Assembly (NCBI GenBank): GCA_963702475.1
Contig: CAVPCT010000009.1
Coordinates: forward strand, 306,008 to 370,007
Length of the DNA stretch: 64,000 bases
Direction of reading: 5' to 3'
From: an uncultured Thermoleophilia bacterium
GTDB taxonomy: Bacteria; Actinomycetota; Thermoleophilia; UBA2241
The position numbers and the translations under genes were made by a program. Shown here one piece after another: positions 2,724-17,004 of the stretch. Within the stretch, counting starts at the first letter, position 1; every line of letters begins with the position of its first letter. The notes under the pieces are model-generated. The model saw nothing but the letters and a program-made list of their open reading frames with translations, searched no databases and had not been told where the DNA came from.

Positions 2724-4124
2724 GTGAGCAAGATCTGGACCCGAATGGGTGACGGCAACGCCGTCGAACTGACCCCAGACGAACTCCGCCAGGACATCAT
2801 CGCGGCGACTGAAGACGCCGCGGACAAGGGGCACATCCCGCCCCTTGAAGAGAACGAGATCGACCACCTGTATGACCTCTTCGCGGCGCCGTACCGCATC
2901 ATCGGCGTCGAGCCCGGCCATGAAGTGCCGCTGACCAAGGACGAGACGGCGTGCACCCTCGTCTCCTCGCAGCTGTCGAGTGGTTCACACCTGGCGATAA
3001 GCCGCGAAGACGCAGTCGAAGTCTTCGAGCGCGTGTTCGCGTTCGACACCATGGAGCTGGGCTGGATCGACTACTCCTTCAAGCCGGCGAAGCCCATGGT
3101 CTCTCTGGACCAGGTCTCCATCGAGCGCATCATGGCCACCACCGTGTTCCCGGTGCTCTACGGCGCCATGCCGAACATGGGCCTCTACTACACGCCGGAC
3201 GGGCCGTTCACCAACCCGGCCGACCTCCTCGGCATGATGAAGGTCGAAGAGGCGCGTGAGGAGGAGATGAAGGCCGCCGAGCTCTGCATGGAAGACATGA
3301 TCTTCGTGTGCGAGCGCATGAACGAGATCGGCGCCGACGGCATCGACTTCGACACCACGGCCTCCGCGGGTGACGCCGACTTCTGGTCGGTCCTCAAGAC
3401 GGTCGAGCATCTCAAGGCCCACACCGACCTCGGCGTCGAGATGGGCATGTCCGGCGAGTTCATCCTCGGCATGCACGGCGAGGTCGAGTACAACGGCAAG
3501 AGGCTCGCCGGCATGTTCCCGCACCAGCAGCTGAAGTGCGCGGAAGAGGCGGGCGTCGACATCTTCGGCCCCGTGGTCAACACCAAGACCAACAAGTCCT
3601 GTGCCTGGAACGTCGCCCGCGCCGTCACGTTCGTCAAGGAAGTCTGCAAGCAGGCCACCATCCCGATCCACGCGAACGTGGGTATGGGCGTAGGCGGCAC
3701 GCCGATGTTCGAGACACCGCCGATCGACGCTCTCAGCCGCGCGAGCGTAGCCATGGTCGAGATCGCCAAGGTCGACGGGTTGTAGGTCGGCGTCGGCGAT
3801 CCCTACGGCATGTCCATCATGCACTCGATCGCATCTGGAATGGGTGGCATCCGCACCGCTGGAGACCTGGTGGCAAGGATGGAGCTCAATCACCGGATGA
3901 GGCTTCCCGAGGCGAAGAAGTACGTGGCCGACAAGCTCGGCGTCAGCGTGTTCGACCTGTCGGACTCCACCGTCATGCGCAACCTGCGCGAAGAGCTCAA
4001 CATCGGCGTGATCGAGGCGATCCCGGGCCTGGCGAAGGGCTACACCGCCAAGGCGCGCATCGCCGATCTCCTCGACATCAAGATCAACGGCGTCGAGCGC
4101 CAGATGGCGAAGATGCCGGCTTGA
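2724..4124 (+). CDS. mtbB: Pyrrolysine-containing dimethylamine:corrinoid methyltransferase (in-frame TAG at 3783-3785, codon 354)
   Basis: ORFs 2724-3785 and 3810-4124 are in one frame separated only by TAG. Read-through gives 466 aa with [15 protein letters not shown]...[13 protein letters not shown], the MtbB Pyl-site signature. TRMGDG N-terminus; corrinoid gene follows. Confidence 0.95.
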
Positions 4125-4184: not shown

Positions 4185-4832
4185 ATGGCGAATGAAGACT
4201 TCTATGCGGATGCGAAAGCCGCAATCCGCGCGTGTGACGCCGACAAGTCCGCTCAGGTGGCAACAGACGCCCTCGCGGCCGGCGTAGCGCCCGACGACAT
4301 GCTGAAGCTGGGATTCATCCCGGGCATCAGCGCGATGGGCGATCTCTTCGAGCGCGGCGAGGTGTTCCTCCCCGAGCTCGTCCTCGCGGCGAACGCCATG
4401 ACGGCGGCTGCTGCGGTGTGTAACGCGGCCCTGCCCGAGGGCGAGGCGGAGGCGAAGGCCATCGTCGTCATCGGCACCGTCCAGGGCGACGTGCATGATA
4501 TCGGCAAGACCATCGTCGTCGCGTTCCTCAGGGCCAACGGCTACAACGTGTTCGACCTTGGTCGCGATATCTCGGGCGACAAGTTCATCGCCGCCGCGGA
4601 GGAGAAGGGCGCCGCCGTCATCGGTATGAGTGCCCTGCTCACCACCACCATGCGCGAGCAGACGCGTGTCATCGAGGCTCTCAAGGCCGCGGGTCTGCGC
4701 GACAAGTACAAGGTCATCGTCGGCGGCGGCGCCTGCACCCAGCAGTGGGCCGACAAGATCGGCGCGGACGCGTACGCCGAAGACGCCAACGACGGCATCC
4801 GCAAGATCAACGAGCTCACGGGAAACGCGTGA
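4185..4832 (+). CDS. mtbC: Methyltransferase cognate corrinoid protein (MtbC-like)
   Basis: B12-binding motif GDVHDIGK...SALLTTT...IVGGG, N-terminal cap domain (FLPELV); directly after mtbB. Confidence 0.9.
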   Translation: MANEDFYADAKAAIRACDADKSAQVATDALAAGVAPDDMLKLGFIPGISAMGDLFERGEVFLPELVLAANAMTAAAAVCNAALPEGEAEAKAIVVIGTVQGDVHDIGKTIVVAFLRANGYNVFDLGRDISGDKFIAAAEEKGAAVIGMSALLTTTMREQTRVIEALKAAGLRDKYKVIVGGGACTQQWADKIGADAYAEDANDGIRKINELTGNA

Positions 4833-5941: not shown

Positions 5942-6190
5942 CTCATCCTTCGGCCCGCCGCGCCCCATCGGGGGAGCGCCGGCGCGACCGACAGAGGTGT
6001 ATCCCTGGTCCTGCGTGCACGGCATCCGGGGGGATCGCCGTCGCACTGGGGAGGTGGTGCCGCAACCTGAGCCGCCGGACGACCACCGGTCTCGCGCCCG
6101 GTGCCGGCCCGTTTCATGCCGGCACGTCACCGGGCCAAAGCCATGGTCCCGGGATCTCTCACACAACGTCAACGAGCAGAGGGGGGAGCA

Positions 6191-7810
6191 ATGATAGTGG
6201 CAGCCGCGATCAGTCCAGTCTGGTACTGGGTCATCGTGCTCGGCTACATGCTCGTGCTGATCGGGATCGGCGCCTGGACGTACCGCTACCAGAAGCAGCA
6301 GAAGTCCGCGACCGACGAGCACGACGACTACTGGATCGCCAAGCGCCGCAACAACGCCCTCGTGGTGGGCTGCGCCATCGCTGCAGGCTGGTTCCTGATG
6401 GGCTTCATCACCTGGGCCATGTACAACACCTACATGTACGGCATCGGCGGCATCTGGGCCATGGTCGTACCGTGGACGGTGCTGCTGTTCTGCATGGTGA
6501 TCCTCGTGCCGTGGGTACGGCGCATGAAGGCCATCTCGCAGCCGCAGATGCTCCAGCAGCGCTTCGGACTGGCTCTGCGCGTGCTCGTGAGCCCGTTCAA
6601 CATGTTCTGCTTCATCATCTGGGCCGCGGCGGAGATCTGGACGGTCTCGCTGTACATGGCGTCGGCATTCGGCGTCCAACCCTGGGTCCTCTACATCGTC
6701 TTCGCCGTGCCCTGCGCCCTCTACATGGCCCTGGGCGGCTTCCACGCCGTCATCAGCGCCAACCTGCTGCAGTTCGCCATGGGCGTCACCTTCGTCACCA
6801 TCATCTTCTTCGTGATGGTCTTTGAGGCGTGGGACGCCCTGCCCAGTGGCCAGAGCATGATCGACTACCTCGGGAGCGTCGTACCGGCGGGCAACTCGGA
6901 AGGCGACAGTGCGCTCACGCTCTTCAGCCTGGGCATACCGTTCGCCATCTTCTCGCTCATCGCACTCCTGCCGGGGTGGGTGATCGAGGAGGACTGGTGG
7001 CTCAAGGCGCAGTCGGCCAAGAGCACGCGTGCCGCACGGCAGGGCATCTGGGCCAACCTGAGCTACAACCTCATCTGGATCCTCGGCCTGCCGAGCCTCA
7101 TCGGCCTCTTCGCCCTCGTGCTTTATCCGCCGGAAGTGCTCGACACCAAGCTGGCCGGGAACGCCTACGAGCTCATGCCGGTGTTCCTGGGTGACTACTT
7201 CCCGCCTTGGCTGCAGATGATCGTGTTCTGCCTCATGGCTGCACACGCCGTAGCCACGGTGGCTACGTTCACCAACGTGTCGGCCCTCAACATCAGCTAC
7301 GACGTCCTGCAGCCGCTCGTATACCGCAAGCGCGGGTGGGGTGACGCCAGGATCGTGCTGGCCAGCCGCATCGCGTCGCTGTTGGTCGTCATCGCCACCC
7401 TGGGCGTGACGTTCCTCATCGACATGCTGCCGCAGGGCCTGTGGGACGCGTACTACCTGTCCAGCGGTGTGCTCTCTGCTGCCGTCGGCGTCTCCGTACT
7501 CTCCATCTTCTGGAAGCGCGCCAACTTCGCCGGTGCTTTCGCTGCGTCGCTCGTCGGTGGCGTCACCACACTCGTGCTGTTCATCGTGGAGAAGTACGTC
7601 TGGGAGTACGACTGGCCGATCCCGATCCCGGATTCCATGGTCGCTACCGGCTACGCCTACGCGGTGGTCGGCGTGATCCTCGCCATCATCACCCTGGTCG
7701 TGGTCACGCTGCTGACGCCCAAGCCGCCGCAGATCAACCTCGACTCCATCTCGGCGCAACCCGTTGACGATCACGCCGAGTTCTTCGCCGGCGTGCGTGA
7801 GACGTACTGA
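6191..7810 (+). CDS. Sodium:solute symporter (SSS) family transporter
   Basis: ATG at 6191 after GAGGGGGGAG; about 13 hydrophobic segments; DYWIAKR, GGFHAVISANLLQ, WKRANFAGAFAA and SLLTP-like SSF motifs. Confidence 0.88.
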   Translation: MIVAAAISPVWYWVIVLGYMLVLIGIGAWTYRYQKQQKSATDEHDDYWIAKRRNNALVVGCAIAAGWFLMGFITWAMYNTYMYGIGGIWAMVVPWTVLLFCMVILVPWVRRMKAISQPQMLQQRFGLALRVLVSPFNMFCFIIWAAAEIWTVSLYMASAFGVQPWVLYIVFAVPCALYMALGGFHAVISANLLQFAMGVTFVTIIFFVMVFEAWDALPSGQSMIDYLGSVVPAGNSEGDSALTLFSLGIPFAIFSLIALLPGWVIEEDWWLKAQSAKSTRAARQGIWANLSYNLIWILGLPSLIGLFALVLYPPEVLDTKLAGNAYELMPVFLGDYFPPWLQMIVFCLMAAHAVATVATFTNVSALNISYDVLQPLVYRKRGWGDARIVLASRIASLLVVIATLGVTFLIDMLPQGLWDAYYLSSGVLSAAVGVSVLSIFWKRANFAGAFAASLVGGVTTLVLFIVEKYVWEYDWPIPIPDSMVATGYAYAVVGVILAIITLVVVTLLTPKPPQINLDSISAQPVDDHAEFFAGVRETY

Positions 7811-7854: not shown

Positions 7855-8310
7855 ATGGCATACACAATCGTGGTGGGGTACGACGGGTCCGAGCCGGCCA
7901 AGAAGGCGCTGGCCGCGGCCATCGAGTTCGCCAAGACCACACCCGACGCCGAGATCGTGGTCGTCTGCGGCCAGGACCGCAGGCCGGGGTACTTCTACTA
8001 TGACGACCAGCCACTGTGGAAAGAGGCCATCAAGCTCGACCAGATGTGGGAGCACATGGAGGCCAAGATCGAGGAGGACCTCCAGGAAGCGGTGAAGGTC
8101 GTCCAGGACGCAGACGTGAAGGCGACCGCTGCCTGCGGTCGCGGACGGCCGTCTTCGATCGTGCTGAACGTGGCGCGAGAGACCGGCGCCCGCCTCATCG
8201 TCGTGGGCACACACGGCTCCGGCAAGGACGAGGAGACCACGGTGATGGGCTCCACGACGACGGAGCTGCTTCACCAGACGCACGTGCCAGTGCTGGTCGT
8301 GCCTCACTGA
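7855..8310 (+). CDS. Universal stress protein (USP)
   Basis: IVVGYDGS...LIVVGTHG...MGSTTTELLHQTHVPVLVVP. Confidence 0.93.
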   Translation: MAYTIVVGYDGSEPAKKALAAAIEFAKTTPDAEIVVVCGQDRRPGYFYYDDQPLWKEAIKLDQMWEHMEAKIEEDLQEAVKVVQDADVKATAACGRGRPSSIVLNVARETGARLIVVGTHGSGKDEETTVMGSTTTELLHQTHVPVLVVPH

Positions 8311-8505
8311 CCACCGTGCGCGCCTGACGCGCACGGAGTGCCCGGCCGCCGGCGAGTCTCTGGCTCGCCGGCGGCCGGTAGTACGGCCCGGCCCGGGCCG
8401 TGGAACATACGGGGAGAGTCGCGACCGGCGGCCGTCCGGGGGCTCGTTCGTCTGAGCCCGGAGGTCCACCGGTCGTGTCCCCTCTTAACATCCTTGGGGG
8501 AGTCG

Positions 8506-9360
8506 GTGACCTTCGACGAATTCGCACTCATGCTCACAGCTGGGCCCAGGGCCAAGCTGCGGGCGGAAGTCTCCCTGGAGGACCGCGAGCGCATCCTGCG
8601 CTCCCTCATGGGCCGCCTTCCCGTCATGGTCTACCGCTGCGCCGACGACGCCCAGTGGACCATGGAGTTCGTGAGCGCCGGAGCAGAGGAGATCACCGGC
8701 TACAAGCCGGAGGAGCTCGTTGGCAACGCCCGGCTGGCGTACACCGACCTGGTGGTGCCGTGGCACTACGAGGGCGTCTGCCGCGACATCCAGCACGCCA
8801 TCGAGAAGCACAACGCGTGGACGACGTCCTACCCCATCATCACCGCGTCAGGCGACCGCAAGTGGGTGTGGGAGCGCGGTGTGGCCGTGCTCGACGACGC
8901 CGGGGAGGTGATAGCGCTTGCAGGGATCATCATCGACATGACCGTGGAGCGCGAGGCCGAGGAGTCACTCGAGCTCGCGCTCGCCGAGTGGCGCCAGGTG
9001 TTCGACGCCATGGACGACGCCGTGATGGTCCTGGACGGCGACGGCGAGGTGCTGCGAGCCAACGCGGCGGCAGCGGCTCTCAGCGGACTCGATCAGGCCG
9101 AGATGGCCGGGCTCAAGTGCTCGGACGCGCTGCAGGAGCTCTGCGGCCAGGCCCAGGGCATGTGTCCTCGCGACAGGGTGCTGCTGTCGGGGCGGACGGA
9201 GATGACCTACGTGGAGCACGAAGGCAGGCTGCTTCGCCTGACGTTCAAGCCGACCCCGGTCATGGACGGACGCGTCAACGGCGGCTTGTACGTCGTGAGC
9301 GACGTCACGGACGCCGTCCGGGCACGGCCGCAGGACGCACCGGGTACGTCCTACGTGTGA
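8506..9360 (+). CDS. Tandem PAS/PAC-domain sensor protein without output domain
   Basis: GTG at 8506 after GGGGGAG; MVYRC..D..WTMEFVS.GAEEITGY.PEEL and KWVWERG PAS/PAC, second PAS (FDAMDDAVMVLD...RAN); ends directly after the second PAS. Confidence 0.85.
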   Translation: MTFDEFALMLTAGPRAKLRAEVSLEDRERILRSLMGRLPVMVYRCADDAQWTMEFVSAGAEEITGYKPEELVGNARLAYTDLVVPWHYEGVCRDIQHAIEKHNAWTTSYPIITASGDRKWVWERGVAVLDDAGEVIALAGIIIDMTVEREAEESLELALAEWRQVFDAMDDAVMVLDGDGEVLRANAAAAALSGLDQAEMAGLKCSDALQELCGQAQGMCPRDRVLLSGRTEMTYVEHEGRLLRLTFKPTPVMDGRVNGGLYVVSDVTDAVRARPQDAPGTSYV

Positions 9361-9399
9361 GACGCGGCGGGCGCCGCCCGCCGCGCGTCTGCACCGGCG

Positions 9400-9741
9400 T
9401 CAGGATGCTGAGCGTCTGAGGAGGTCGGCCGCACTCGCGAAGAGCCATTCGGTGCGGGTGCGACACGTGACTATCGTGGCCAGGTCGAGCTCGCCCGGCA
9501 GCTCTTCGTCGACGAACGCGGCCGCAAGGTCCTTGACGCGGATCGGCTCCTGGCCGCCCCTCTCCATCTCGGCCAGTTCCATCATCACGGCCACGCCCTT
9601 GCCGTCCCACTCATTGGGGACCACTGCGCACGAGAAGACGAAGGGGTGACCGTCGAGCTCGTATTCCTGGATCTCCCGCCGGCGCGCCAAAGAGACGGGA
9701 TCGGTTGCCGGGTCCCCGCTGCGAACCAGCCACTCGCTCAT
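9400..9741 (-). CDS. Hypothetical protein (113 aa)
   Basis: MSEWLVRSG start with GGGAGGA RBS; typical codon usage. Confidence 0.6.
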   Translation of the reverse strand: MSEWLVRSGDPATDPVSLARRREIQEYELDGHPFVFSCAVVPNEWDGKGVAVMMELAEMERGGQEPIRVKDLAAAFVDEELPGELDLATIVTCRTRTEWLFASAADLLRRSAS

Positions 9742-9956
9742 CGTGTCCTCCCGCTCGTTCGCTCGGCGCATCGCCCGCCTCGAGTGCCAGTGTGGAAGTG
9801 CGAGAGCGGAATCTTGTGCCGTTCTGGCGAATTCAGTGCCCTGTGGGGCCTTATGCGGTAGAGTACTGCGCAACAGGGTGCGGGAAGCGGCAAAACAGAT
9901 GTTCACTGTGTCCATCTATAAGCTACGCACTAGGCCATAACAAACAACATTGAGCC

Positions 9957-9986
9957 TTGATGCAGGGGTCGCGTATCTCCTATAGT
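9957..9986 (+). promoter_or_regulatory. Sigma70-type promoter for the mttB-corrinoid operon
   Basis: TTGATG (9957-9962), 18-nt spacer, TATAGT (9981-9986); AGCCTTGA at the -35 is shared with the mtbB promoter. Confidence 0.5.
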
Positions 9987-10254
9987 CGCGCTCACCACCG
10001 TCCATAACGGCGACACATCGAGAAGGCTCTGTGTACTGTCTGGGTGCACGGCCTTTCTCATCGCACGTTGTCACACTCCGGGCTTCGGCCCACGCGTCGA
10101 CCATGACGGGCCACGTTCCCACCGTCGACTGGATCGTGGCGCGAACCGCGCTCAAGGGAGGAGGCGGGATGACGAGATGAGGGCGAGCCCACGAGGCCCT
10201 GCGGCCGGGTTCGCCCAGAACCGCTATCTGCAAAGTGCGTAAGAAGGAGGCGGA

Positions 10255-11730
10255 ATGATTCGAAGTCAAAGGTCAGGCATCAACCACCAGGGCGGCATCG
10301 GCATCGATGTCTTCAGCGAGGATGAGAGGCAGGCCATCCACTGGGGCACCGTCGAGGTGCTCGAGACGGCCGGCATCTGGGTGGAGGACGACGAGGCCCT
10401 CGACCTGTTCGCCGACGGCGGCTGCAAGGTCGACCGCTCGACGCGCAAGGTGCGGATCCCGCAGCACGTGCTCGAGGAGTGCATCAGTTGGGCGCCCTCC
10501 ACGGTCACCCTCTGCGGCCGCGACCCCGCCAAGGACCTCGTCATGGAGGGCCGGCGGGTCGCGTTCACCAACTTCGCCGAGGGAGTGAAGGCCGTCGACC
10601 TGTACGACGGCAAGCTTCGCCCGACCACCAAGAAGGACGTCGGCGACCTCGCCCGTCTCGTCGACGCGCTCTCCGACATCGAGGTCTACACGATCGCGGT
10701 GACGGCCACCGACGTGCCCCCGGAGGTCGCCGAGGCGCACCTCATCGAGCAGTCGTTGCTGAACACGACGAAGCCCATCTGCAGCCTGGCCCTCGCCCAT
10801 CACGGCGCCCGCCTCCACATCGACGCCGCGGCCGCCGTGGTCGGCGGCCACGACAAGCTGGCCGACCGGCCGATGCTGCTCTTCCTCAGCTGCCCGGTCA
10901 GCCCGCTCAAGCTCATGGGCGAGTTCAGCGGGTGCATCATCGAGGCGGCCCGCGCCCATCAGGTCGCGATGCCGCTATCGATGGCCATGTCAGGCGGCTC
11001 CGCCCCGGTCACCCTGGCCGGCACCATGGTCACGCACAACGCCGAGGTGCTCGCCGGCATCGTCCTGGCGCAGCTCGCCGAGAAGGGCGCCAAGTGCGTC
11101 TACGGCACCTCCACCACCGCCTTCGACCTGCAGCGCGCGGCCGCGACCGTGGGCACCCCGGAGCTCGGCCTCATCAGCGCGGCCGTGGCCGAGATGGGCC
11201 GCTACTATGGCCTGCCGACCTACGGCGCCGGGTTGTAGAGCGATTCCAAGCTCGGCGGCGACGCCCAGGTCGCGCACGAGAAGACCGTCACCGGCCTCCT
11301 GCCAGCGTTGGGAGGGCTCAACCTGATCTATGGAGCCGGGATGATCGAGTCGGGCGTCACCATCGACTACGGCACGCTCGTCATGGACAACGACATCGCC
11401 CGTATCTGCAAGTACGTCCTGCGTGGCATCCCCACGAACGACGCGACGCTGATGGTTGATGAGATCATCGAGGTGGGGTCCGAGGAGGACTTCCTCTCGA
11501 GGATGAGCACCCTGAAGCTGATGCGTGAACACCAGTCCAAGGCCGGCAACATCGACCGCCGCGTGCGCGAGGAGTGGGAGATGGACGGCGGCAAGGACAT
11601 GTACAGCCGCTGCAACGAGATGGCCAAGGAGCTCGTCGAGAGCCACACGGTTCCCGAGCTGCCGAGCGACGTCAAGGACCAGATCAGGGCCATCGTCGTC
11701 AAGGCCGAGAAGGACGCTGGAGTCGCCTGA
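10255..11730 (+). CDS. mttB: Pyrrolysine-containing trimethylamine:corrinoid methyltransferase (in-frame TAG at 11236-11238, codon 328)
   Basis: ORFs 10255-11238 and 11308-11730 share a frame. Read-through gives 491 aa with YYGLPTYGAGL-O-SDSKLGGDAQVAHEK...NLIYGAGMIESG, matching the Pyl site of MttB. Also SMAMSGGSAPVTLAGT and HNAEVL motifs; AAGAAGGAGG RBS. Confidence 0.95.
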
Positions 11731-11779
11731 GAGCTCAGCGCTCCGCAACGAACGCACGACGTGGAGGACATAGGATCCT

Positions 11780-12406
11780 ATGGCAGACTTTGACTCTCTC
11801 AAGCAGATGATCGTCGACGGCAACGACGCCGCCACGGCCGCCACCCAGGCGCTCGTGGACGGCGGCGCCTCCGCCCGCGATATCCTCGACAGCGCCCTGC
11901 TTCCCGGCATGGACATCGTCGGCGCGCAGATGAAGAGCGGCGACAAGTTCATCCCCGAGGTGCTGCTCAGCGCCCGCACCATGCAGGGCTGCCTCGACAT
12001 CATCAAGCCGCTTCTTGGTGAGGGCGGCGGCTCCCTCGGCACGGTCGTCATCGCCACCGTCGAGGGCGACATGCACGACATCGGCAAGAACCTCGTCGCC
12101 ATGCTGCTCAGCGGCGCCGGCTTCGAGGTCGTCAACCTCGGCAAGGGCATCACCTGCGCCGACATGGTCGCCGCCTGCAAAGAGCACGACGCCGACATCC
12201 TCGGCATGAGCGGCCTGCTGACCACCACCATCCCCAAGATGCCCGAGACCATCCAGGCCCTCAAGGACGCCGGCCTGCGCGACAAGGTCAAGGTCATCGT
12301 CGGCGGCGCCCCGGTCAGTGCCGAGTGGGCCGCCGAGGTGGGCGCCGACGCCTACGGTGCCAACGCGTCCCTCGGCGTCGAGAAGTGCAAGGAGCTCATG
12401 GGCTGA
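11780..12406 (+). CDS. mttC: Methyltransferase cognate corrinoid protein (MttC-like)
   Basis: GDMHDIGKNLV, SGLLTTT, IVGGAP motifs; directly after mttB. Confidence 0.9.
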   Translation: MADFDSLKQMIVDGNDAATAATQALVDGGASARDILDSALLPGMDIVGAQMKSGDKFIPEVLLSARTMQGCLDIIKPLLGEGGGSLGTVVIATVEGDMHDIGKNLVAMLLSGAGFEVVNLGKGITCADMVAACKEHDADILGMSGLLTTTIPKMPETIQALKDAGLRDKVKVIVGGAPVSAEWAAEVGADAYGANASLGVEKCKELMG

Positions 12407-12752: not shown

Positions 12753-14363
12753 ATGGCACAGAACGACTACCTTGAAGGGTACTCAGAGGAGTACAAGGCA
12801 TCCCGGATGAACACGAACATGCGCCGCGACCTGAGCTGGGTCGGCGCTTTCTTCGTCGCCGCCGGAGTGCCCGCGCTGGTCCTCTTCCAGATGGGCGGCG
12901 TCTCCGGCATGACCGGGGCGGTTGCAGCGCTCGTCTGGACGATCTCGGTCCTCATCGGCTTCGTCGACGCGTTCACCTACGCGGAGATCGCCGGGCTGCA
13001 CCCCAAGAAGTCAGGCGGCACGGCCGTCCACGGCGCCACCGCCTGGATCCGCTACATCCGCCCGACGGCGGCCATCTCGCTGTGGTGCAACTGGCTGGCG
13101 TGGACACCGGTGCTCGCCATCGGCGCCGGCCTCGGGGCCTCGTATCTTCTGTCCATCTTCTACGCACCCGACTCCACGATCATGACGTGGCAGTGGACCA
13201 TTGCCGACCTGGGCTTCCTCAAGGACGGCCTCACGCTGCGTATCAACGCCGTGTTCATCGTCGGCGCCGTCATCATCCTGGCCGTCTGGAACATCCAGCA
13301 CTACGGCATCCTGCGCACCGCGCGCGTACAGACGATCCTCACCATCGGCGCCGTCACGCCGCTGCTGGTGCTCTCGATCGTGCCGCTGGTCACCGGCGAC
13401 GTCGTGATGAGCAACTTCTCGCCCTTCACGCCCGTCAACGGCGCCTGGGACATCACCGGCTGGGAGTTCTTCCTCGGGGCCCTCTTCATCTGCGCCTGGA
13501 CGACCTACGCCTTCGAGACCGCCGTCTGCTACATGAGTGAGTTCAAGAACCCGGCGAAGGACATGTCGAAGGCGATCATCATCTCCGGCCTGTTCTGCAT
13601 CCTGTGCTTCACGCTCATCCCGTTCGTGTTCCAGGGTGTGCTCGGCACCGAGTACATGCTGCAGGCCGACGTGATCTCCGGTGCGGCGGTGCCCCAGGCC
13701 TGGGCCGACGTCGTGAGCGCCGGCAGCTTCCTGACCAACGTCATCATCGTGCTCCTGTTCTTCACGGTGGTCGTCGCGATCATGACGGCCATGTCCGGCT
13801 CGTCGCGCACGCTGTTCCAAGGCGGGCAGGACGGCTGGCTGCCCAAGTACCTGTCGCACCTGAACAACCACAAGGTGCCCACGTACGCCATGTGGACCGA
13901 CCTCGGCGTCAACCTCGTGCTGCTGCTCATGTCGGACTACCTGTTCGTGCTGGCGGTGTCCAACTGCAACTACATGATCTTCAACTTCCTGAACCTGAAC
14001 GCAGGCTGGATCCACCGCATCGACAACGCCAAAGTGCCGCGGCCGTACAAGGCGCCGCTGCCCCTGTTCGTGCTCGGCGCCTGCTTCGCCTACTTGAACG
14101 CGTTCCTCCTCGGTGCCGGCGCGAACGCGTGGGGCTCGGGGACGCTCCTCATGGGCTGGATCACGGCGCTCATAGCACTGCCGTTCTTCTACTATCGCCA
14201 CTACGTGACGGACAAGGGCCAGTTCCCCAAGCACATGTGGGACGACCTGCTGCTCGAGGGCGAGACGGAGCTCGGGCCGACGAAGGCCGGCATCAAGCCG
14301 TACATCGCGGTGGCCGGCGGCCTGGCGTCCATGGCGCTCGGCTACGTCATCTTCTGGGTCTGA
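12753..14363 (+). CDS. APC-family permease, probable methylated-amine transporter
   Basis: 12+ TM segments; GVPALVL, YAEIAGL.P.KSGG, FETAVCY.SEFKNP, SSRTLFQ and RPYKAP motifs; lies next to mttBC. Confidence 0.88.
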   Translation: MAQNDYLEGYSEEYKASRMNTNMRRDLSWVGAFFVAAGVPALVLFQMGGVSGMTGAVAALVWTISVLIGFVDAFTYAEIAGLHPKKSGGTAVHGATAWIRYIRPTAAISLWCNWLAWTPVLAIGAGLGASYLLSIFYAPDSTIMTWQWTIADLGFLKDGLTLRINAVFIVGAVIILAVWNIQHYGILRTARVQTILTIGAVTPLLVLSIVPLVTGDVVMSNFSPFTPVNGAWDITGWEFFLGALFICAWTTYAFETAVCYMSEFKNPAKDMSKAIIISGLFCILCFTLIPFVFQGVLGTEYMLQADVISGAAVPQAWADVVSAGSFLTNVIIVLLFFTVVVAIMTAMSGSSRTLFQGGQDGWLPKYLSHLNNHKVPTYAMWTDLGVNLVLLLMSDYLFVLAVSNCNYMIFNFLNLNAGWIHRIDNAKVPRPYKAPLPLFVLGACFAYLNAFLLGAGANAWGSGTLLMGWITALIALPFFYYRHYVTDKGQFPKHMWDDLLLEGETELGPTKAGIKPYIAVAGGLASMALGYVIFWV

Positions 14364-14378
14364 GGCGAGGTGGCAGTG

Positions 14379-14819
14379 ATGGCATACAGCATCGTGGTGG
14401 GCTACGACGGTTCCGAGCACTCGGTGAGGGCGCTCGACGCGGCCATCGAGTGGGCGAAGCTCCGTGGTGACGCCGAGATCATGGTCGCCTGCGCGCAGCA
14501 CCGTTCGGCGCCGGGCGTGGGGTTCCGCGGCCTCGACTTCGGCGTGGAAGAGATGTGGGACAAGATGCAGGTCCGCATCGAGGCGGAGCTCGATGAGGCC
14601 GCGGCCCGTGTGAAGGCGGCCGGCATCGCGGTCGCCACGGCCTGCACCCCGGACCGCGCCGACGAGAGCATCATCAAGATCGCCCGCGACACGGGCGCGC
14701 AGCTCATCGTGCTCGGCGTCAAGGGCGCGGGTTCTGTGGAGAAGCAGCGCACTGCCGTGGGCTCGACCACGACGCGCGTGCTCCAGGAAGCGGGCGGCAT
14801 ACCCGTGCTGGTCGTCTAA
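14379..14819 (+). CDS. Universal stress protein (USP), paralog of 7855-8310
   Basis: MAYSIVVGYDGS...LIVLGVKG...VGSTTTRVLQ...PVLVV. Confidence 0.93.
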   Translation: MAYSIVVGYDGSEHSVRALDAAIEWAKLRGDAEIMVACAQHRSAPGVGFRGLDFGVEEMWDKMQVRIEAELDEAAARVKAAGIAVATACTPDRADESIIKIARDTGAQLIVLGVKGAGSVEKQRTAVGSTTTRVLQEAGGIPVLVV

Positions 14820-16024: not shown

Positions 16025-16194
16025 CGCCCGCGCCGGTCTGTACGGCGGAGGGGGCGCCCGCGCTCCTTCCTGGCCTTGCCAGCGCTTGCCGGGCGGCCCA
16101 CAATACGCTGAAGCGCGAGCCACAGGGATCGGGTACCTGAGGCGCTCCGTCCCTGAGGCTCGCGCTCGTTCGTCCCCGGCCAGGAGGAGTGAGG

Positions 16195-17004
16195 ATGACG
16201 CCCGACGTCACAGCCGATGCCGCAGCCATGAAGGAGGCTTGGCGCGCCGCCGCCGCCGAGCACGGGTTCGAGCTCTTCGGAGCTGTCTCAGCCGAGGTGT
16301 TGGCCGAGGTGCCGTTTCCGCCCAACCGCTGCCTGGACGTGCCGGAGGGCTTCCTGCCGGGCGCGCGCAGCGTGCTCGTCCTCGGCATGCACATCTGGGA
16401 CCCCATGCAGAACGCCGTGGTCACCTCGGTGCTGCCCGATGGCGCCATACCCTTCGACGACGTGCCCGGCTCGCAGTACTACAACATGTACTACGAGCTT
16501 ACCGAGGCGCGTGCGCACCGCTTCTCCGAGACCGTGCGTGAGGCGGGCTACCGCACGGCCGTCACGCACTTCGTCCACGCCAAGGCAGCCGCCACGCTCG
16601 CGGGCCTCGGCTGGGTCGGCAGGCAGACGCTCGTGCTCACGCCCGAGCTCGGCCCGCACGTACGCTGGGCCTGCGTCGTGACCGACGCCGTGCTGCCATA
16701 CGACGAGCCCTTCACGGATGATCTGTGCGAGGGGTGCCCCGACCTGTGCATCAAGGCCTGCCCGACACAGGCCATCGCCCCTGGGCCGTCCAAGGGGGTC
16801 GAGCCCGGCAAGAAGGTCGACTTCTGGAAGTGCATCGTGCCGCAGGAGATGCTGGCCGAGCCCAACAAAGCCTGGGAGAAGTGGGCCGGCCACTACTCGG
16901 AACGCGGCAGCCACGAGTGCCTCATCTGCCTGGACGCCTGCCCTGTGGGCAGGGAAGAGCACGAGCGACGCGTGGCCGCGTACCGCACGAAACCGACGGC
17001 CTGA
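16195..17004 (+). CDS. Epoxyqueuosine-reductase (QueG)-like 4Fe-4S double-cluster protein
   Basis: LPGARSVLVLG, HAKAAATLAGLGWVGR..LVLTPELGP.VR, CEGCPDLCIKACP and CLICLDACP clusters. Confidence 0.8.
   Translation: MTPDVTADAAAMKEAWRAAAAEHGFELFGAVSAEVLAEVPFPPNRCLDVPEGFLPGARSVLVLGMHIWDPMQNAVVTSVLPDGAIPFDDVPGSQYYNMYYELTEARAHRFSETVREAGYRTAVTHFVHAKAAATLAGLGWVGRQTLVLTPELGPHVRWACVVTDAVLPYDEPFTDDLCEGCPDLCIKACPTQAIAPGPSKGVEPGKKVDFWKCIVPQEMLAEPNKAWEKWAGHYSERGSHECLICLDACPVGREEHERRVAAYRTKPTA

What the first reader, a model, noticed from the sequence alone, without database searches (positions are those of the whole stretch)
10255..11730. mttB read through an amber codon (GAGL-O-SDSK): a true TMA-type, not a non-Pyl MtgB-type enzyme
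Most bacterial MttB-superfamily members lack Pyl and act on quaternary amines such as glycine betaine. This copy has TAG at the Pyl position, which predicts trimethylamine demethylation. Together with mtbB it suggests stepwise TMA to DMA to MMA demethylation.
Basis: partly seen in the sequence, partly recalled or inferred. Interest (0 to 1): 0.78.

Follow-up and report, generated by a model that had tools for sequence, protein, structure and literature searches.

The report
Pyrrolysine-type trimethylamine methyltransferase gene, confirmed
This gene in an uncultured soil and wetland actinobacterium really is a trimethylamine methyltransferase that needs the rare 22nd amino acid pyrrolysine, a known kind of enzyme whose presence in this bacterial group has already been noted.

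Summary
ORF 10255..11730 (+) has 491 codons and one in-frame TAG (11236-11238, YGAGL-TAG-SDSK). The TAG aligns exactly with Pyl334 of the solved Methanosarcina barkeri MttB.

- The gene scores 374 bits to MttB and 199 bits to the non-Pyl MtgB. It passes NCBIfam TIGR02369.
- It sits inside a well-supported Pyl clade in two trees.
- All 7 orthologues (84-92% identical) keep the TAG, as do 43 of 47 related loci.
- The genome carries pylB, pylC, pylD, tRNA-Pyl, pylSn and pylSc.
- The gene is followed by its corrinoid protein and by a permease that meets the curated TMAO-permease model. It belongs to an island with TAG-bearing mtbB and, just upstream of the window, TAG-bearing mtmB.

Qualifications:
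- The substrate was not tested.
- TIGR02369 also accepts relatives that have lost Pyl.
- The "100% conserved" Gly110 is Ala here.
- The genome has 13 TAG-bearing mttB paralogues among 52, so not all need use TMA.

Pyl-mttB in Actinobacteriota is already in print (PMC10805028). Verdict: a new member of a known kind, of moderate-to-low interest.

The parts
10255..11730 (+). mttB: Pyl-type trimethylamine:corrinoid methyltransferase, 491 codons including one TAG
   Evidence: Pfam MTTB 300 bits. TIGR02369 619 bits, cut-off 525. M. barkeri MttB 374 bits against MtgB 199 bits. Inside the Pyl clade in both trees.
10245..10250 (+). Shine-Dalgarno-like AGGAGG, 4 nt before the ATG
   Evidence: Read directly from the sequence.
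11236..11238 (+). In-frame TAG, proposed pyrrolysine codon (residue 328)
   Evidence: Aligns with X = Pyl334 of 7xcl. TAG at the same column in 43 of 47 related loci and in 13 of 52 paralogues of this genome.
11236..11338 (+). Match to Rfam PYLIS_3 (pyrrolysine insertion sequence, mttB)
   Evidence: 52.8 bits, gathering 38, E 1.5e-8. The single-sequence fold is not exceptional (z -1.22), so the match may reflect conserved coding sequence.
11780..12406 (+). mttC: cognate corrinoid protein (B12-binding_2 cap plus B12-binding domain, DxHxxG motif as D-M-H-D-I-G)
   Evidence: Pfam. Translation. Adjacent to mttB in 7 of 7 orthologous loci.
12753..14363 (+). APC-family permease meeting the curated TMAO-permease model
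   Evidence: NF053774, 753 bits, cut-off 690. Within 3 kb of mttB in 6 of 7 orthologous loci; the seventh contig is too short.
14370..14819 (+). Universal stress protein
   Evidence: Pfam Usp, 61 bits.
2724..4124 (+). mtbB: Pyl-type dimethylamine methyltransferase, TAG at 3783-3785
   Evidence: Dimeth_Pyl 656 bits. TIGR02368 544 bits, cut-off 369. TAG read directly. PYLIS_2 78 bits at 3783-3882.
4185..4832 (+). mtbC-like corrinoid protein
   Evidence: B12-binding and B12-binding_2. TIGR02370 212 bits, just under the 215.3 cut-off.
6101..7810 (+). Sodium:solute symporter family transporter
   Evidence: Pfam SSF, 71 bits.
7855..8310 (+). Universal stress protein
   Evidence: Pfam Usp, 83 bits.
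8338..9360 (+). PAS-domain sensor protein between the mtbBC and mttBC modules
   Evidence: PAS_4, PAS_9 and PAS_3.

Best explanation
The ORF encodes a pyrrolysine-dependent trimethylamine:corrinoid methyltransferase (MttB) of an uncultured Thermoleophilia bacterium.

Decoding. The UAG at codon 328 is read as pyrrolysine. The genome's own system does this: pylBCD make Pyl from lysine, and the split synthetase PylSn plus PylSc charges tRNA-Pyl(CUA).

Chemistry. The pyrroline imine of Pyl328 adds TMA, helped by the conserved Tyr359 (the equivalent of Tyr364). This creates a quaternary-like adduct. One methyl group passes from it to Co(I) of the corrinoid protein MttC, which is encoded 50 nt downstream. 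Dimethylamine is released.

Rest of the pathway:
- DMA is demethylated by the neighbouring Pyl-MtbB/MtbC.
- MMA is demethylated by Pyl-MtmB/MtmC just upstream of the window.
- The adjacent TMAO-permease-like transporter supplies TMA, or TMAO that is reduced to TMA.
- Methyl-corrinoid is unloaded by a methyltransferase encoded elsewhere in the genome, and the corrinoid is reactivated by RamA-like proteins.

Shown: the gene, the TAG position, family and clade placement, conservation, the Pyl machinery and the gene neighbourhood.
Inferred: Pyl insertion in vivo, TMA as substrate, and the methyl acceptor.
For: TAG position and active site.
- The TAG aligns to Pyl334 of the solved MttB, and the score is 374 bits to MttB against 199 to MtgB.
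- The Tyr364 equivalent (Y359) is kept in 53 of 53 TAG-bearing rows. The Met249 equivalent (M243) is also kept in the query. The role of these residues comes from passages of PMC9842639.
- Only 7 positions separate the orthogroup from the >=85% consensus of 45 other Pyl MttBs, and most changes are conservative.

Family and clade.
- TIGR02369 equivalog 619 bits, cut-off 525.
- Pyl clade supported at 99 in both trees. The orthogroup is all TAG, with support 100.

Pyl machinery.
- tRNA-Pyl(cta) at C3:641046-641118.
- pylB 438 bits, pylC 324 bits, pylD 209 bits, pylSc 315 bits and pylSn 126 bits, all over their cut-offs.

Context.
- mttC carries DxHxxG.
- The permease meets NF053774.
- mtbB/mtbC are in the window. 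mtmB with TAG and mtmC lie at C9:301399-303459.
- The synteny is conserved in orthologous loci.
- Of 13 TAG-bearing paralogues, only this one has its own mttC, this permease and mtbBC within 7 kb.

Auxiliary genes. RamA-like genes lie at C8:52485, C4:217369 and C5:450617. A URO-D-family methyltransferase lies at C8:50583, and pterin-binding proteins at C5:452332 and C3:503817.

Transcription hint. RNA-library contigs from 4 runs of 3 studies lie on 10250-12400 and none on 9900-10160. One contig (X9, 436 nt) bridges the TAG with more than 31 nt on each side.
Against: - No biochemical evidence exists. The substrate is inferred from homology and context only.
- TIGR02369 is not substrate-discriminating. 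Clade members with Leu, Trp, Val, Ser or Gln at the Pyl site pass it too, at 569-771 bits.
- Gly110 is stated to be 100% conserved in 66 Pyl MttBs, and its carbonyl holds the water bound to the Pyl imine (PMC9842639 passages). It is Ala108 here and in all 8 orthogroup members.
- The orthogroup sits on a long stem (0.46-0.54 changes per site). It has a one-residue insertion just after the Pyl motif (SDSKLGG against SDSKV-P).
- The genome has 13 TAG-bearing mttB paralogues, which is hard to explain by one substrate.
- Paralogues with higher scores to TIGR02369 (up to 734 bits) and to M. barkeri MttB (411-415 bits) exist.
- TAG also ends about 16% of 2,195 long ORFs in this genome, so read-through must compete with termination.
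- The contigs in RNA libraries cannot show strand, level or translation.
- No biochemically characterised sequence was a leaf in my trees.
Confidence: 0.78

Rival explanations
1. It is a Pyl-dependent MttB-clade methyltransferase, but its substrate is a tertiary or methylated amine other than TMA. Examples are a tertiary-amine product of quaternary-amine demethylation, or a TMAO-related compound. The 13 TAG-bearing paralogues would have divided substrates among themselves.
For: - 13 TAG-bearing paralogues sit beside 39 non-Pyl ones.
- The active-site Gly110 equivalent varies among TAG-bearing rows: G 31, A 10, S 9, D 3 of 53. It is Ala here.
- The orthogroup has a long stem and an insertion next to the Pyl motif.
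- In a draw of 18 same-genus genomes, only three listed matches share this gene's 1,410-nt match length at 613-628 bits (G006, G011, G018). The higher-scoring types occur in nearly all. Orthology of those three was not checked.
- The neighbouring permease meets a TMAO, not TMA, permease model.
Against: - This is the paralogue embedded with the genome's only Pyl-mtmB and best-scoring Pyl-mtbB. That arrangement fits TMA to DMA to MMA.
- Tyr364 and Met249 equivalents are kept, and only 7 deviations from strongly conserved positions were found.
- Ala in place of Gly keeps the main-chain carbonyl that the structure paper says is used.
- No Pyl-MttB with a non-TMA substrate came up in the papers I read or listed.
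Confidence: 0.15
2. The TAG is an ordinary stop. The locus is a truncated or decaying gene giving a 327-residue product, and the downstream frame is not translated.
For: - TAG terminates about 16% of long ORFs in this genome.
- Gene callers report 327-aa products for the relatives.
Against: - TAG is kept at the same column in 43 of 47 loci from Actinomycetota, Bacillota, Thermodesulfobacteriota and archaea.
- The 163 codons after it are open in 6 of 6 orthologues, with a third-position bias of differences.
- The catalytic Tyr lies after the TAG and is kept in 53 of 53 rows.
- A complete pyl gene set is present.
Confidence: 0.03
3. It is functionally a non-Pyl, MtgB-like quaternary-amine methyltransferase, and the TAG is incidental.
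For: - Most members of the superfamily, including 39 of 52 in this genome, lack Pyl.
- Pyl has been lost repeatedly inside the clade: at least 7 changes of state are forced by starred branches.
Against: - 199 bits to MtgB against 374 to MttB.
- It lies outside all distant non-Pyl groups in both trees.
- The site is TAG, not a sense codon, in every orthologue whose site could be read.
Confidence: 0.02

Closest known systems
Methanosarcina barkeri MttB (PDB 7XCL/7XCM/7XCN; PMC9842639)
   Same: - Full-length sequence match: residues 7-486, 374 bits.
- TAG at the Pyl334 position.
- Tyr364 and Met249 equivalents kept.
- Adjacent corrinoid protein with the His-ligand motif.
- Neighbouring mtbB and a permease.
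   Different: - Bacterial (Thermoleophilia) host.
- Gly110 is Ala and Thr111 is Glu.
- One-residue insertion after the SDSK motif.
- Split PylS (pylSn plus pylSc).
- The methyl acceptor cannot be coenzyme M by the archaeal route and is unidentified.
Desulfitobacterium hafniense MtgB, glycine betaine methyltransferase (PDB 2QNE/9YCE)
   Same: Same superfamily (PF06253), the same length, and alignable end to end.
   Different: - Only 199 bits.
- No Pyl.
- The query falls in a different, well-supported clade from the MtgB-like non-Pyl paralogues of its own genome. MtgB itself was not a leaf in my trees.
Pyl-encoding mttB/mtbB expressed by Actinobacteriota MAGs in Stordalen Mire (PMC10805028, passages read)
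   Same: The same phylum and the same kind of gene, recognised there by truncation at the amber codon. One of my related loci (L031, a fen Actinomycetota MAG) carries TAG at the site.
   Different: - That paper does not, in the passages I read, describe this orthogroup, the Ala108 variant, the TMAO-permease linkage or the paralogue number.
- L031 belongs to another paralogue group.
Multi-copy Pyl-MttB in Sec- and Pyl-using Deltaproteobacteria (Olavius symbiont PMC1976440; PMC8318568; search listings and abstracts only)
   Same: Many TAG-bearing mttB copies and both tRNA-SeC and tRNA-Pyl in one bacterial genome.
   Different: A different phylum. The Desulfobacterota loci in my tree group with other paralogues of this genome, not with the query.

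Membership tests
MttB superfamily (Pfam PF06253) | Full-length match to the family model above the gathering score | tested here: met
   300 bits against 25, residues 17-486.
Pyl-type trimethylamine methyltransferase MttB (NCBIfam TIGR02369) | Score over the curated equivalog cut-off | tested here: met
   619 bits against 525. The cut-off is also passed by clade members without Pyl, so this alone does not show the substrate.
Pyl-type trimethylamine methyltransferase MttB | In-frame UAG at the position of Pyl334 of M. barkeri MttB | tested here: met
   The TAG at 11236-11238 aligns to X334 of 7xcl. The same column is TAG in 43 of 47 related loci.
Pyl-type trimethylamine methyltransferase MttB | Tyr364 equivalent (proton relay to the Pyl imine; Y364F cuts Vmax about 28-fold per PMC9842639) | tested here: met
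   Y359. Kept in 53 of 53 TAG-bearing rows.
Pyl-type trimethylamine methyltransferase MttB | Gly110 equivalent (said to be 100% conserved in 66 UniProt Pyl MttBs, PMC9842639) | tested here: not met
   Ala108 in the query and all 8 orthogroup members. Among 53 TAG-bearing rows: G 31, A 10, S 9, D 3. The paper's alignment (Supplementary Fig. 4) could not be seen.
Pyl-type trimethylamine methyltransferase MttB | Placement in the clade that holds the Pyl-bearing members, apart from quaternary-amine-type members | tested here: met
   Support 99 in both FastTree (110 rows) and IQ-TREE quick (65 rows). No biochemically characterised protein was a leaf.
Pyl-type trimethylamine methyltransferase MttB | Cognate corrinoid protein with a His-on ligand motif encoded next to it | tested here: met
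   mttC at 11780-12406 with D-M-H-D-I-G. It scores below the curated cut-offs of the named MtbC/MtgC models.
Pyl-type trimethylamine methyltransferase MttB | Host encodes Pyl synthesis and decoding (pylB, pylC, pylD, pylS, tRNA-Pyl) | tested here: met
   All are over their cut-offs on contig C3.
Pyl-type trimethylamine methyltransferase MttB | TMA-dependent methylation of Co(I)-MttC; Pyl present in the protein | not testable with these tools
   Needs an enzyme assay and mass spectrometry.
Non-Pyl MttB (MtgB-type quaternary amine methyltransferases) | Sense codon at the Pyl position and closer similarity to MtgB-like members | tested here: not met
   The site is TAG. 199 bits to MtgB against 374 to MttB.

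The most novel reading that the evidence does not exclude
This Thermoleophilia genus may have turned the pyrrolysine-dependent MttB into a multi-substrate enzyme family. The 13 TAG-bearing paralogues differ at the active-site Gly110 position (Gly, Ala, Ser or Asp across the lineage). They could demethylate different tertiary amines, possibly including the tertiary-amine products left by the roughly 37 non-Pyl quaternary-amine paralogues. The query's orthogroup is marked by Ala108, a one-residue insertion after the Pyl motif, and tight linkage to a TMAO-permease-type transporter. It would then be a specialised member rather than a plain TMA enzyme. If so, Pyl chemistry would reach beyond the three classical methylamines.
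Probability: 0.13. Interest if true: 0.72.

Novelty: new member of a known kind. Interest (0 to 1): 0.35.

Why it matters
- It documents a complete, syntenic TMA/DMA/MMA demethylation island with full pyrrolysine machinery in uncultured Thermoleophilia of soils, wetlands and sediments.
- These bacteria would compete with methylotrophic methanogens for methylamines, so they bear on methane budgets.
- Annotation pipelines cut such genes at the TAG: the database relatives are listed as 327-aa proteins.
- The same pipelines would label Pyl-less clade members as TMA methyltransferases.
- The variation at the supposedly invariant Gly110, and the 13 Pyl paralogues in one genome, give a concrete starting point for asking whether Pyl enzymes use more substrates than the three known methylamines.

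Tried and rejected
- PYLIS structure. A single-sequence fold of the 110 nt after the TAG gave z = -1.22, with 24 of 200 shuffles folding as well. The Rfam PYLIS_3 match is therefore not taken as evidence of a functional hairpin.
- Mutational footprint of Pyl loss. I asked whether the Leu codon of the two Pyl-less clade paralogues in this genome is TTG, one step from TAG. It is CTC in both, so there is no footprint.
- Other in-frame TAGs in the window. Those I checked (DAP epimerase/aminotransferase, nucleotidyl transferase-PGM, GDP-mannose dehydratase, epimerase, Wzz-like) fall at or after the ends of the Pfam matches. They look like ordinary stops or lie outside genes. They are not further Pyl candidates.
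- Earlier findings of this scan: nothing returned.
- RNA-library contigs. They show presence only. Lack of cover at 9900-10160 and the very high depth at 11988-12161 (the conserved B12-binding region, shared with other organisms) are not interpreted.
- Not run, as unlikely to change the verdict: structure prediction, complex prediction, and the 1.84-billion-protein search. The match to a solved MttB is already full-length at E about 1e-110.
- Literature. "Thermoleophilia" with "pyrrolysine" gave 1 unrelated paper. "MttB superfamily" with "Thermoleophilia" gave none. "RBG-16-64-13" with "trimethylamine" gave only PMC10805028.
- A TMAO reductase was not searched for.

Full report
**1. The observation**

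Under table 11 the + frame starting at ATG 10255 stops at TAG after 327 codons. Read through, it continues to TGA at 11728-11730. That gives 491 codons with one internal stop.

An AGGAGG lies 4 nt before the ATG.

Four results show the reading frame is real on both sides of the TAG:
- The Pfam MTTB match covers residues 17-486 (300 bits).
- The alignment to the solved M. barkeri MttB covers residues 7-486 (372-374 bits). It has no gap at the site and puts the TAG on the X that stands for Pyl334 in 7xcl.
- In six orthologues the 163 codons after the TAG are open. Most differences fall at third codon positions.
- Rfam's PYLIS_3 model matches 11236-11338, starting at the TAG (52.8 bits against a gathering score of 38). 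The fold of this stretch alone is unremarkable (z -1.22), so I treat this match as a second sequence classifier, not as proof of a structure.

**2. Organism and Pyl machinery**

The window is G000:C9:306008-370007 of a 4.3-Mb, 9-contig, 70% G+C genome bin. Completeness is 93.8% and contamination 6.5%. The closest loci elsewhere (84-92% identical protein) are titled uncultured Thermoleophilia MAGs.

The genome holds a full bacterial-type pyl set:

| Gene | Place | Score |
|---|---|---|
| pylB | C3:637885-638913 | 438 bits |
| pylC | C3:638955-640109 | 324 bits |
| pylD | C3:640193-640975 | 209 bits |
| tRNA-Pyl(cta) | C3:641046-641118 | ARAGORN |
| pylSn | C3:642228-642485 | 126 bits |
| pylSc | C3:657647-658372, minus strand, beside an mtbB | 315 bits |

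All protein scores are over the curated cut-offs.

TAG is not reassigned genome-wide. It ends about 16% of 2,195 long, codon-biased ORFs (TGA 82%, TAA 3%). The other in-frame TAGs that I checked in the window are ordinary stops.

**3. Family and clade**

The genome has 75 PF06253 matches. Of these, 52 are near full length, and 13 of the 52 have TAG at the Pyl column. Two more are close relatives with Leu there, and 37 are distant non-Pyl members.

Related loci in other genomes. Among 47 loci, 43 have TAG at the column. The four others are:
- one frameshifted in my straight translation (L021);
- two distant non-Pyl loci at 27-30% identity (L058, L059);
- one cut before the site (L060).

FastTree. 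It used 110 rows. I left out L021, L022, L039, L057 and L060 as frameshifted or short. All TAG-bearing rows fall in one clade of 71 rows (53 TAG, 18 not) with support 99.

IQ-TREE quick, LG+C20. It used 65 of those 110 rows:
- all 13 TAG paralogues and the 2 Leu paralogues;
- 28 loci;
- 14 of the 16 full-length database proteins;
- 8 of the 37 distant paralogues.

This tree gives the same clade (57 rows, SH-aLRT 99). The query sits in an all-TAG orthogroup (support 100) inside a mostly actinobacterial subclade (21 rows, 19 TAG, support 97).

The clade includes the Methanomassiliicoccales loci. No biochemically characterised protein was a leaf. The link to the characterised enzyme is the PDB comparison.

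**4. Limits of the family label**

All 13 TAG-bearing paralogues pass TIGR02369, at 549-734 bits. The query scores 619.

So do clade members with Leu, Trp, Val, Ser or Gln at the Pyl site, at 569-771 bits. The equivalog marks the clade, not the chemistry.

Inside the clade the Pyl state changes at least 7 times on starred branches.

Against M. barkeri MttB the query (374 bits) lies between other paralogues (411, 415 and 322 bits).

**5. Active site**

From passages of PMC9842639:
- Pyl334 points into the cavity.
- A water on its imine is held by Tyr364 and by the carbonyl of Gly110, which sits in a cis Gly110-Thr111 bond.
- Y364F lowers Vmax from 48 to 1.7 turnovers per minute.
- Met249 moves on MttC binding.
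- Gly110 and Tyr364 are said to be 100% conserved in 66 Pyl MttBs.

In the query:
- The Tyr equivalent (Y359) is kept, as in 53 of 53 TAG rows.
- The Met equivalent (M243) is kept, as in 46 of 53.
- The Gly110 equivalent is Ala108, in all 8 orthogroup members. Across the 53 TAG rows it is G 31, A 10, S 9, D 3.
- There is a one-residue insertion just after the Pyl motif.
- Only 7 positions set the orthogroup apart from the >=85% consensus of the other 45 TAG rows, and most changes are conservative.

I read this as a conserved catalytic core with a modest local variation. The paper's supplementary alignment could not be seen.

**6. Neighbourhood**

Downstream lies mttC (11780-12406), with B12 cap and B12-binding domains and a D-M-H-D-I-G ligand motif. 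After it comes an APC permease that meets the curated TMAO-permease equivalog NF053774 (753 bits against a cut-off of 690). A Usp gene follows.

Upstream lie, in order:
- mtbB with TAG at 3783-3785;
- mtbC;
- an SSF transporter;
- a Usp gene;
- a PAS protein.

Just outside the window lie:
- the genome's only TAG-bearing mtmB (1 of 5 MtmB-family matches; C9:301399-302748, 659-661 bits);
- its corrinoid protein;
- another amino-acid-type permease;
- a two-component system.

In orthologous loci mttB-mttC is kept in 7 of 7. The permease lies within 3 kb in 6 of 7, and mtbB-mtbC is present in 5. Among the 13 TAG paralogues only this one has all of these within 7 kb.

Corrinoid activators (RACo/RamA-like) and candidate methyl-corrinoid methyltransferases (URO-D family, pterin-binding) are encoded elsewhere.

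**7. Expression hint**

Contigs from four metatranscriptome-labelled runs of three studies lie on 10250-12400 at 90-99% likeness. None lies on 9900-10160. One 436-nt contig bridges the TAG. Contigs cannot show strand, level or translation.

**8. Mechanism**

The most likely mechanism is a Pyl-dependent TMA:MttC methyl transfer as in M. barkeri. It would feed DMA and MMA to the neighbouring Pyl enzymes, with TMA or TMAO uptake by the adjacent permease.

- Shown: gene, codon position, clade, conservation, pyl genes and synteny.
- Inferred: Pyl insertion, TMA specificity and the methyl acceptor.

Odds:

| Reading | Odds |
|---|---|
| Pyl-dependent TMA enzyme | 0.78 |
| Pyl enzyme with another amine | 0.15 |
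| Ordinary stop | 0.03 |
| MtgB-like function | 0.02 |

**9. Novelty**

Bacterial Pyl-MttB is established. Expression of Pyl-encoding mttB and mtbB by Actinobacteriota MAGs in a peatland is in print (PMC10805028, passages read).

My searches of the held library found nothing on Pyl in Thermoleophilia specifically.

The trait is genus-wide in the sample searched. All 18 of 18 same-genus genomes have matches over the cut-off, against 1 of 12 genomes from other genera of the class.

This gene is a new member of a known kind. The paralogue expansion and the Gly110 variation are the parts worth following.

Noticed in passing
Whole genome G000 (e.g. C4:37631-63000, C3:301159-302625, C6:373666-375132): Very large MttB family. 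There are 52 near-full-length paralogues in a 4.3-Mb genome. 13 have TAG at the Pyl column and many are clustered on contig C4. In addition there are at least 7 full-length TAG-bearing mtbB.
   Followed up: partly
G000:C4:42500-43966 and C4:59949-61412 (L087, L088); proteins P0021, P0024, P0028, P0029, P0032: Members nested inside the Pyl clade carry Leu, Trp, Ser or Val at the Pyl position. They still pass the TIGR02369 'trimethylamine methyltransferase' cut-off. One of them also has Phe for the catalytic Tyr. Their substrate is unknown, and pipelines would mislabel them.
   Followed up: partly
Alignment column of query Ala108 (window 10576-10578): The Gly110 equivalent is reported as invariant in Pyl MttBs. 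Among 53 TAG-bearing sequences it is G 31, A 10, S 9, D 3. Seventeen of the 19 Ala or Ser rows and all 3 Asp rows are from Actinomycetota; the other two Ser rows (L036, L037) are from Eubacteriales (Bacillota) MAGs.
   Followed up: partly
G000:C3:167171-167268 and C3:641046-641118: The genome encodes both tRNA-SeC and tRNA-Pyl, so it has a doubly expanded genetic code.
   Followed up: no
G000:C5:571067-572416, C4:65316-66659, C9:248475-249818, C2:42577-43938: Four MtmB-family homologues have no in-frame TAG (221-308 bits). They sit beside the single TAG-bearing mtmB.
   Followed up: no
G000:C6:375207-375830 and C3:1127496-1127954 (approximate, offsets): Two other TAG-bearing mttB paralogues are followed by corrinoid-protein genes 94% and 90% identical to the window's mttC. 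The mttB genes themselves are only 46% identical. This suggests recent copying or conversion of mttC.
   Followed up: no
window 16189-17004: An Fe-S protein has weak QueG/reductive-dehalogenase-like matches. It stays next to the mttB module in 4 orthologous loci at 81-84% identity. Its role is unknown.
   Followed up: no
window 3783-3882: Rfam PYLIS_2 (mtbB) matches at 78 bits, starting at the TAG of mtbB.
   Followed up: no
window 9361-10254: About 890 nt upstream of mttB have no convincing gene. There is no Pfam match on the long minus-strand ORF, no Rfam match and no RNA-contig cover at 9900-10160. One promoter-like site lies at 9957-9986.
   Followed up: partly
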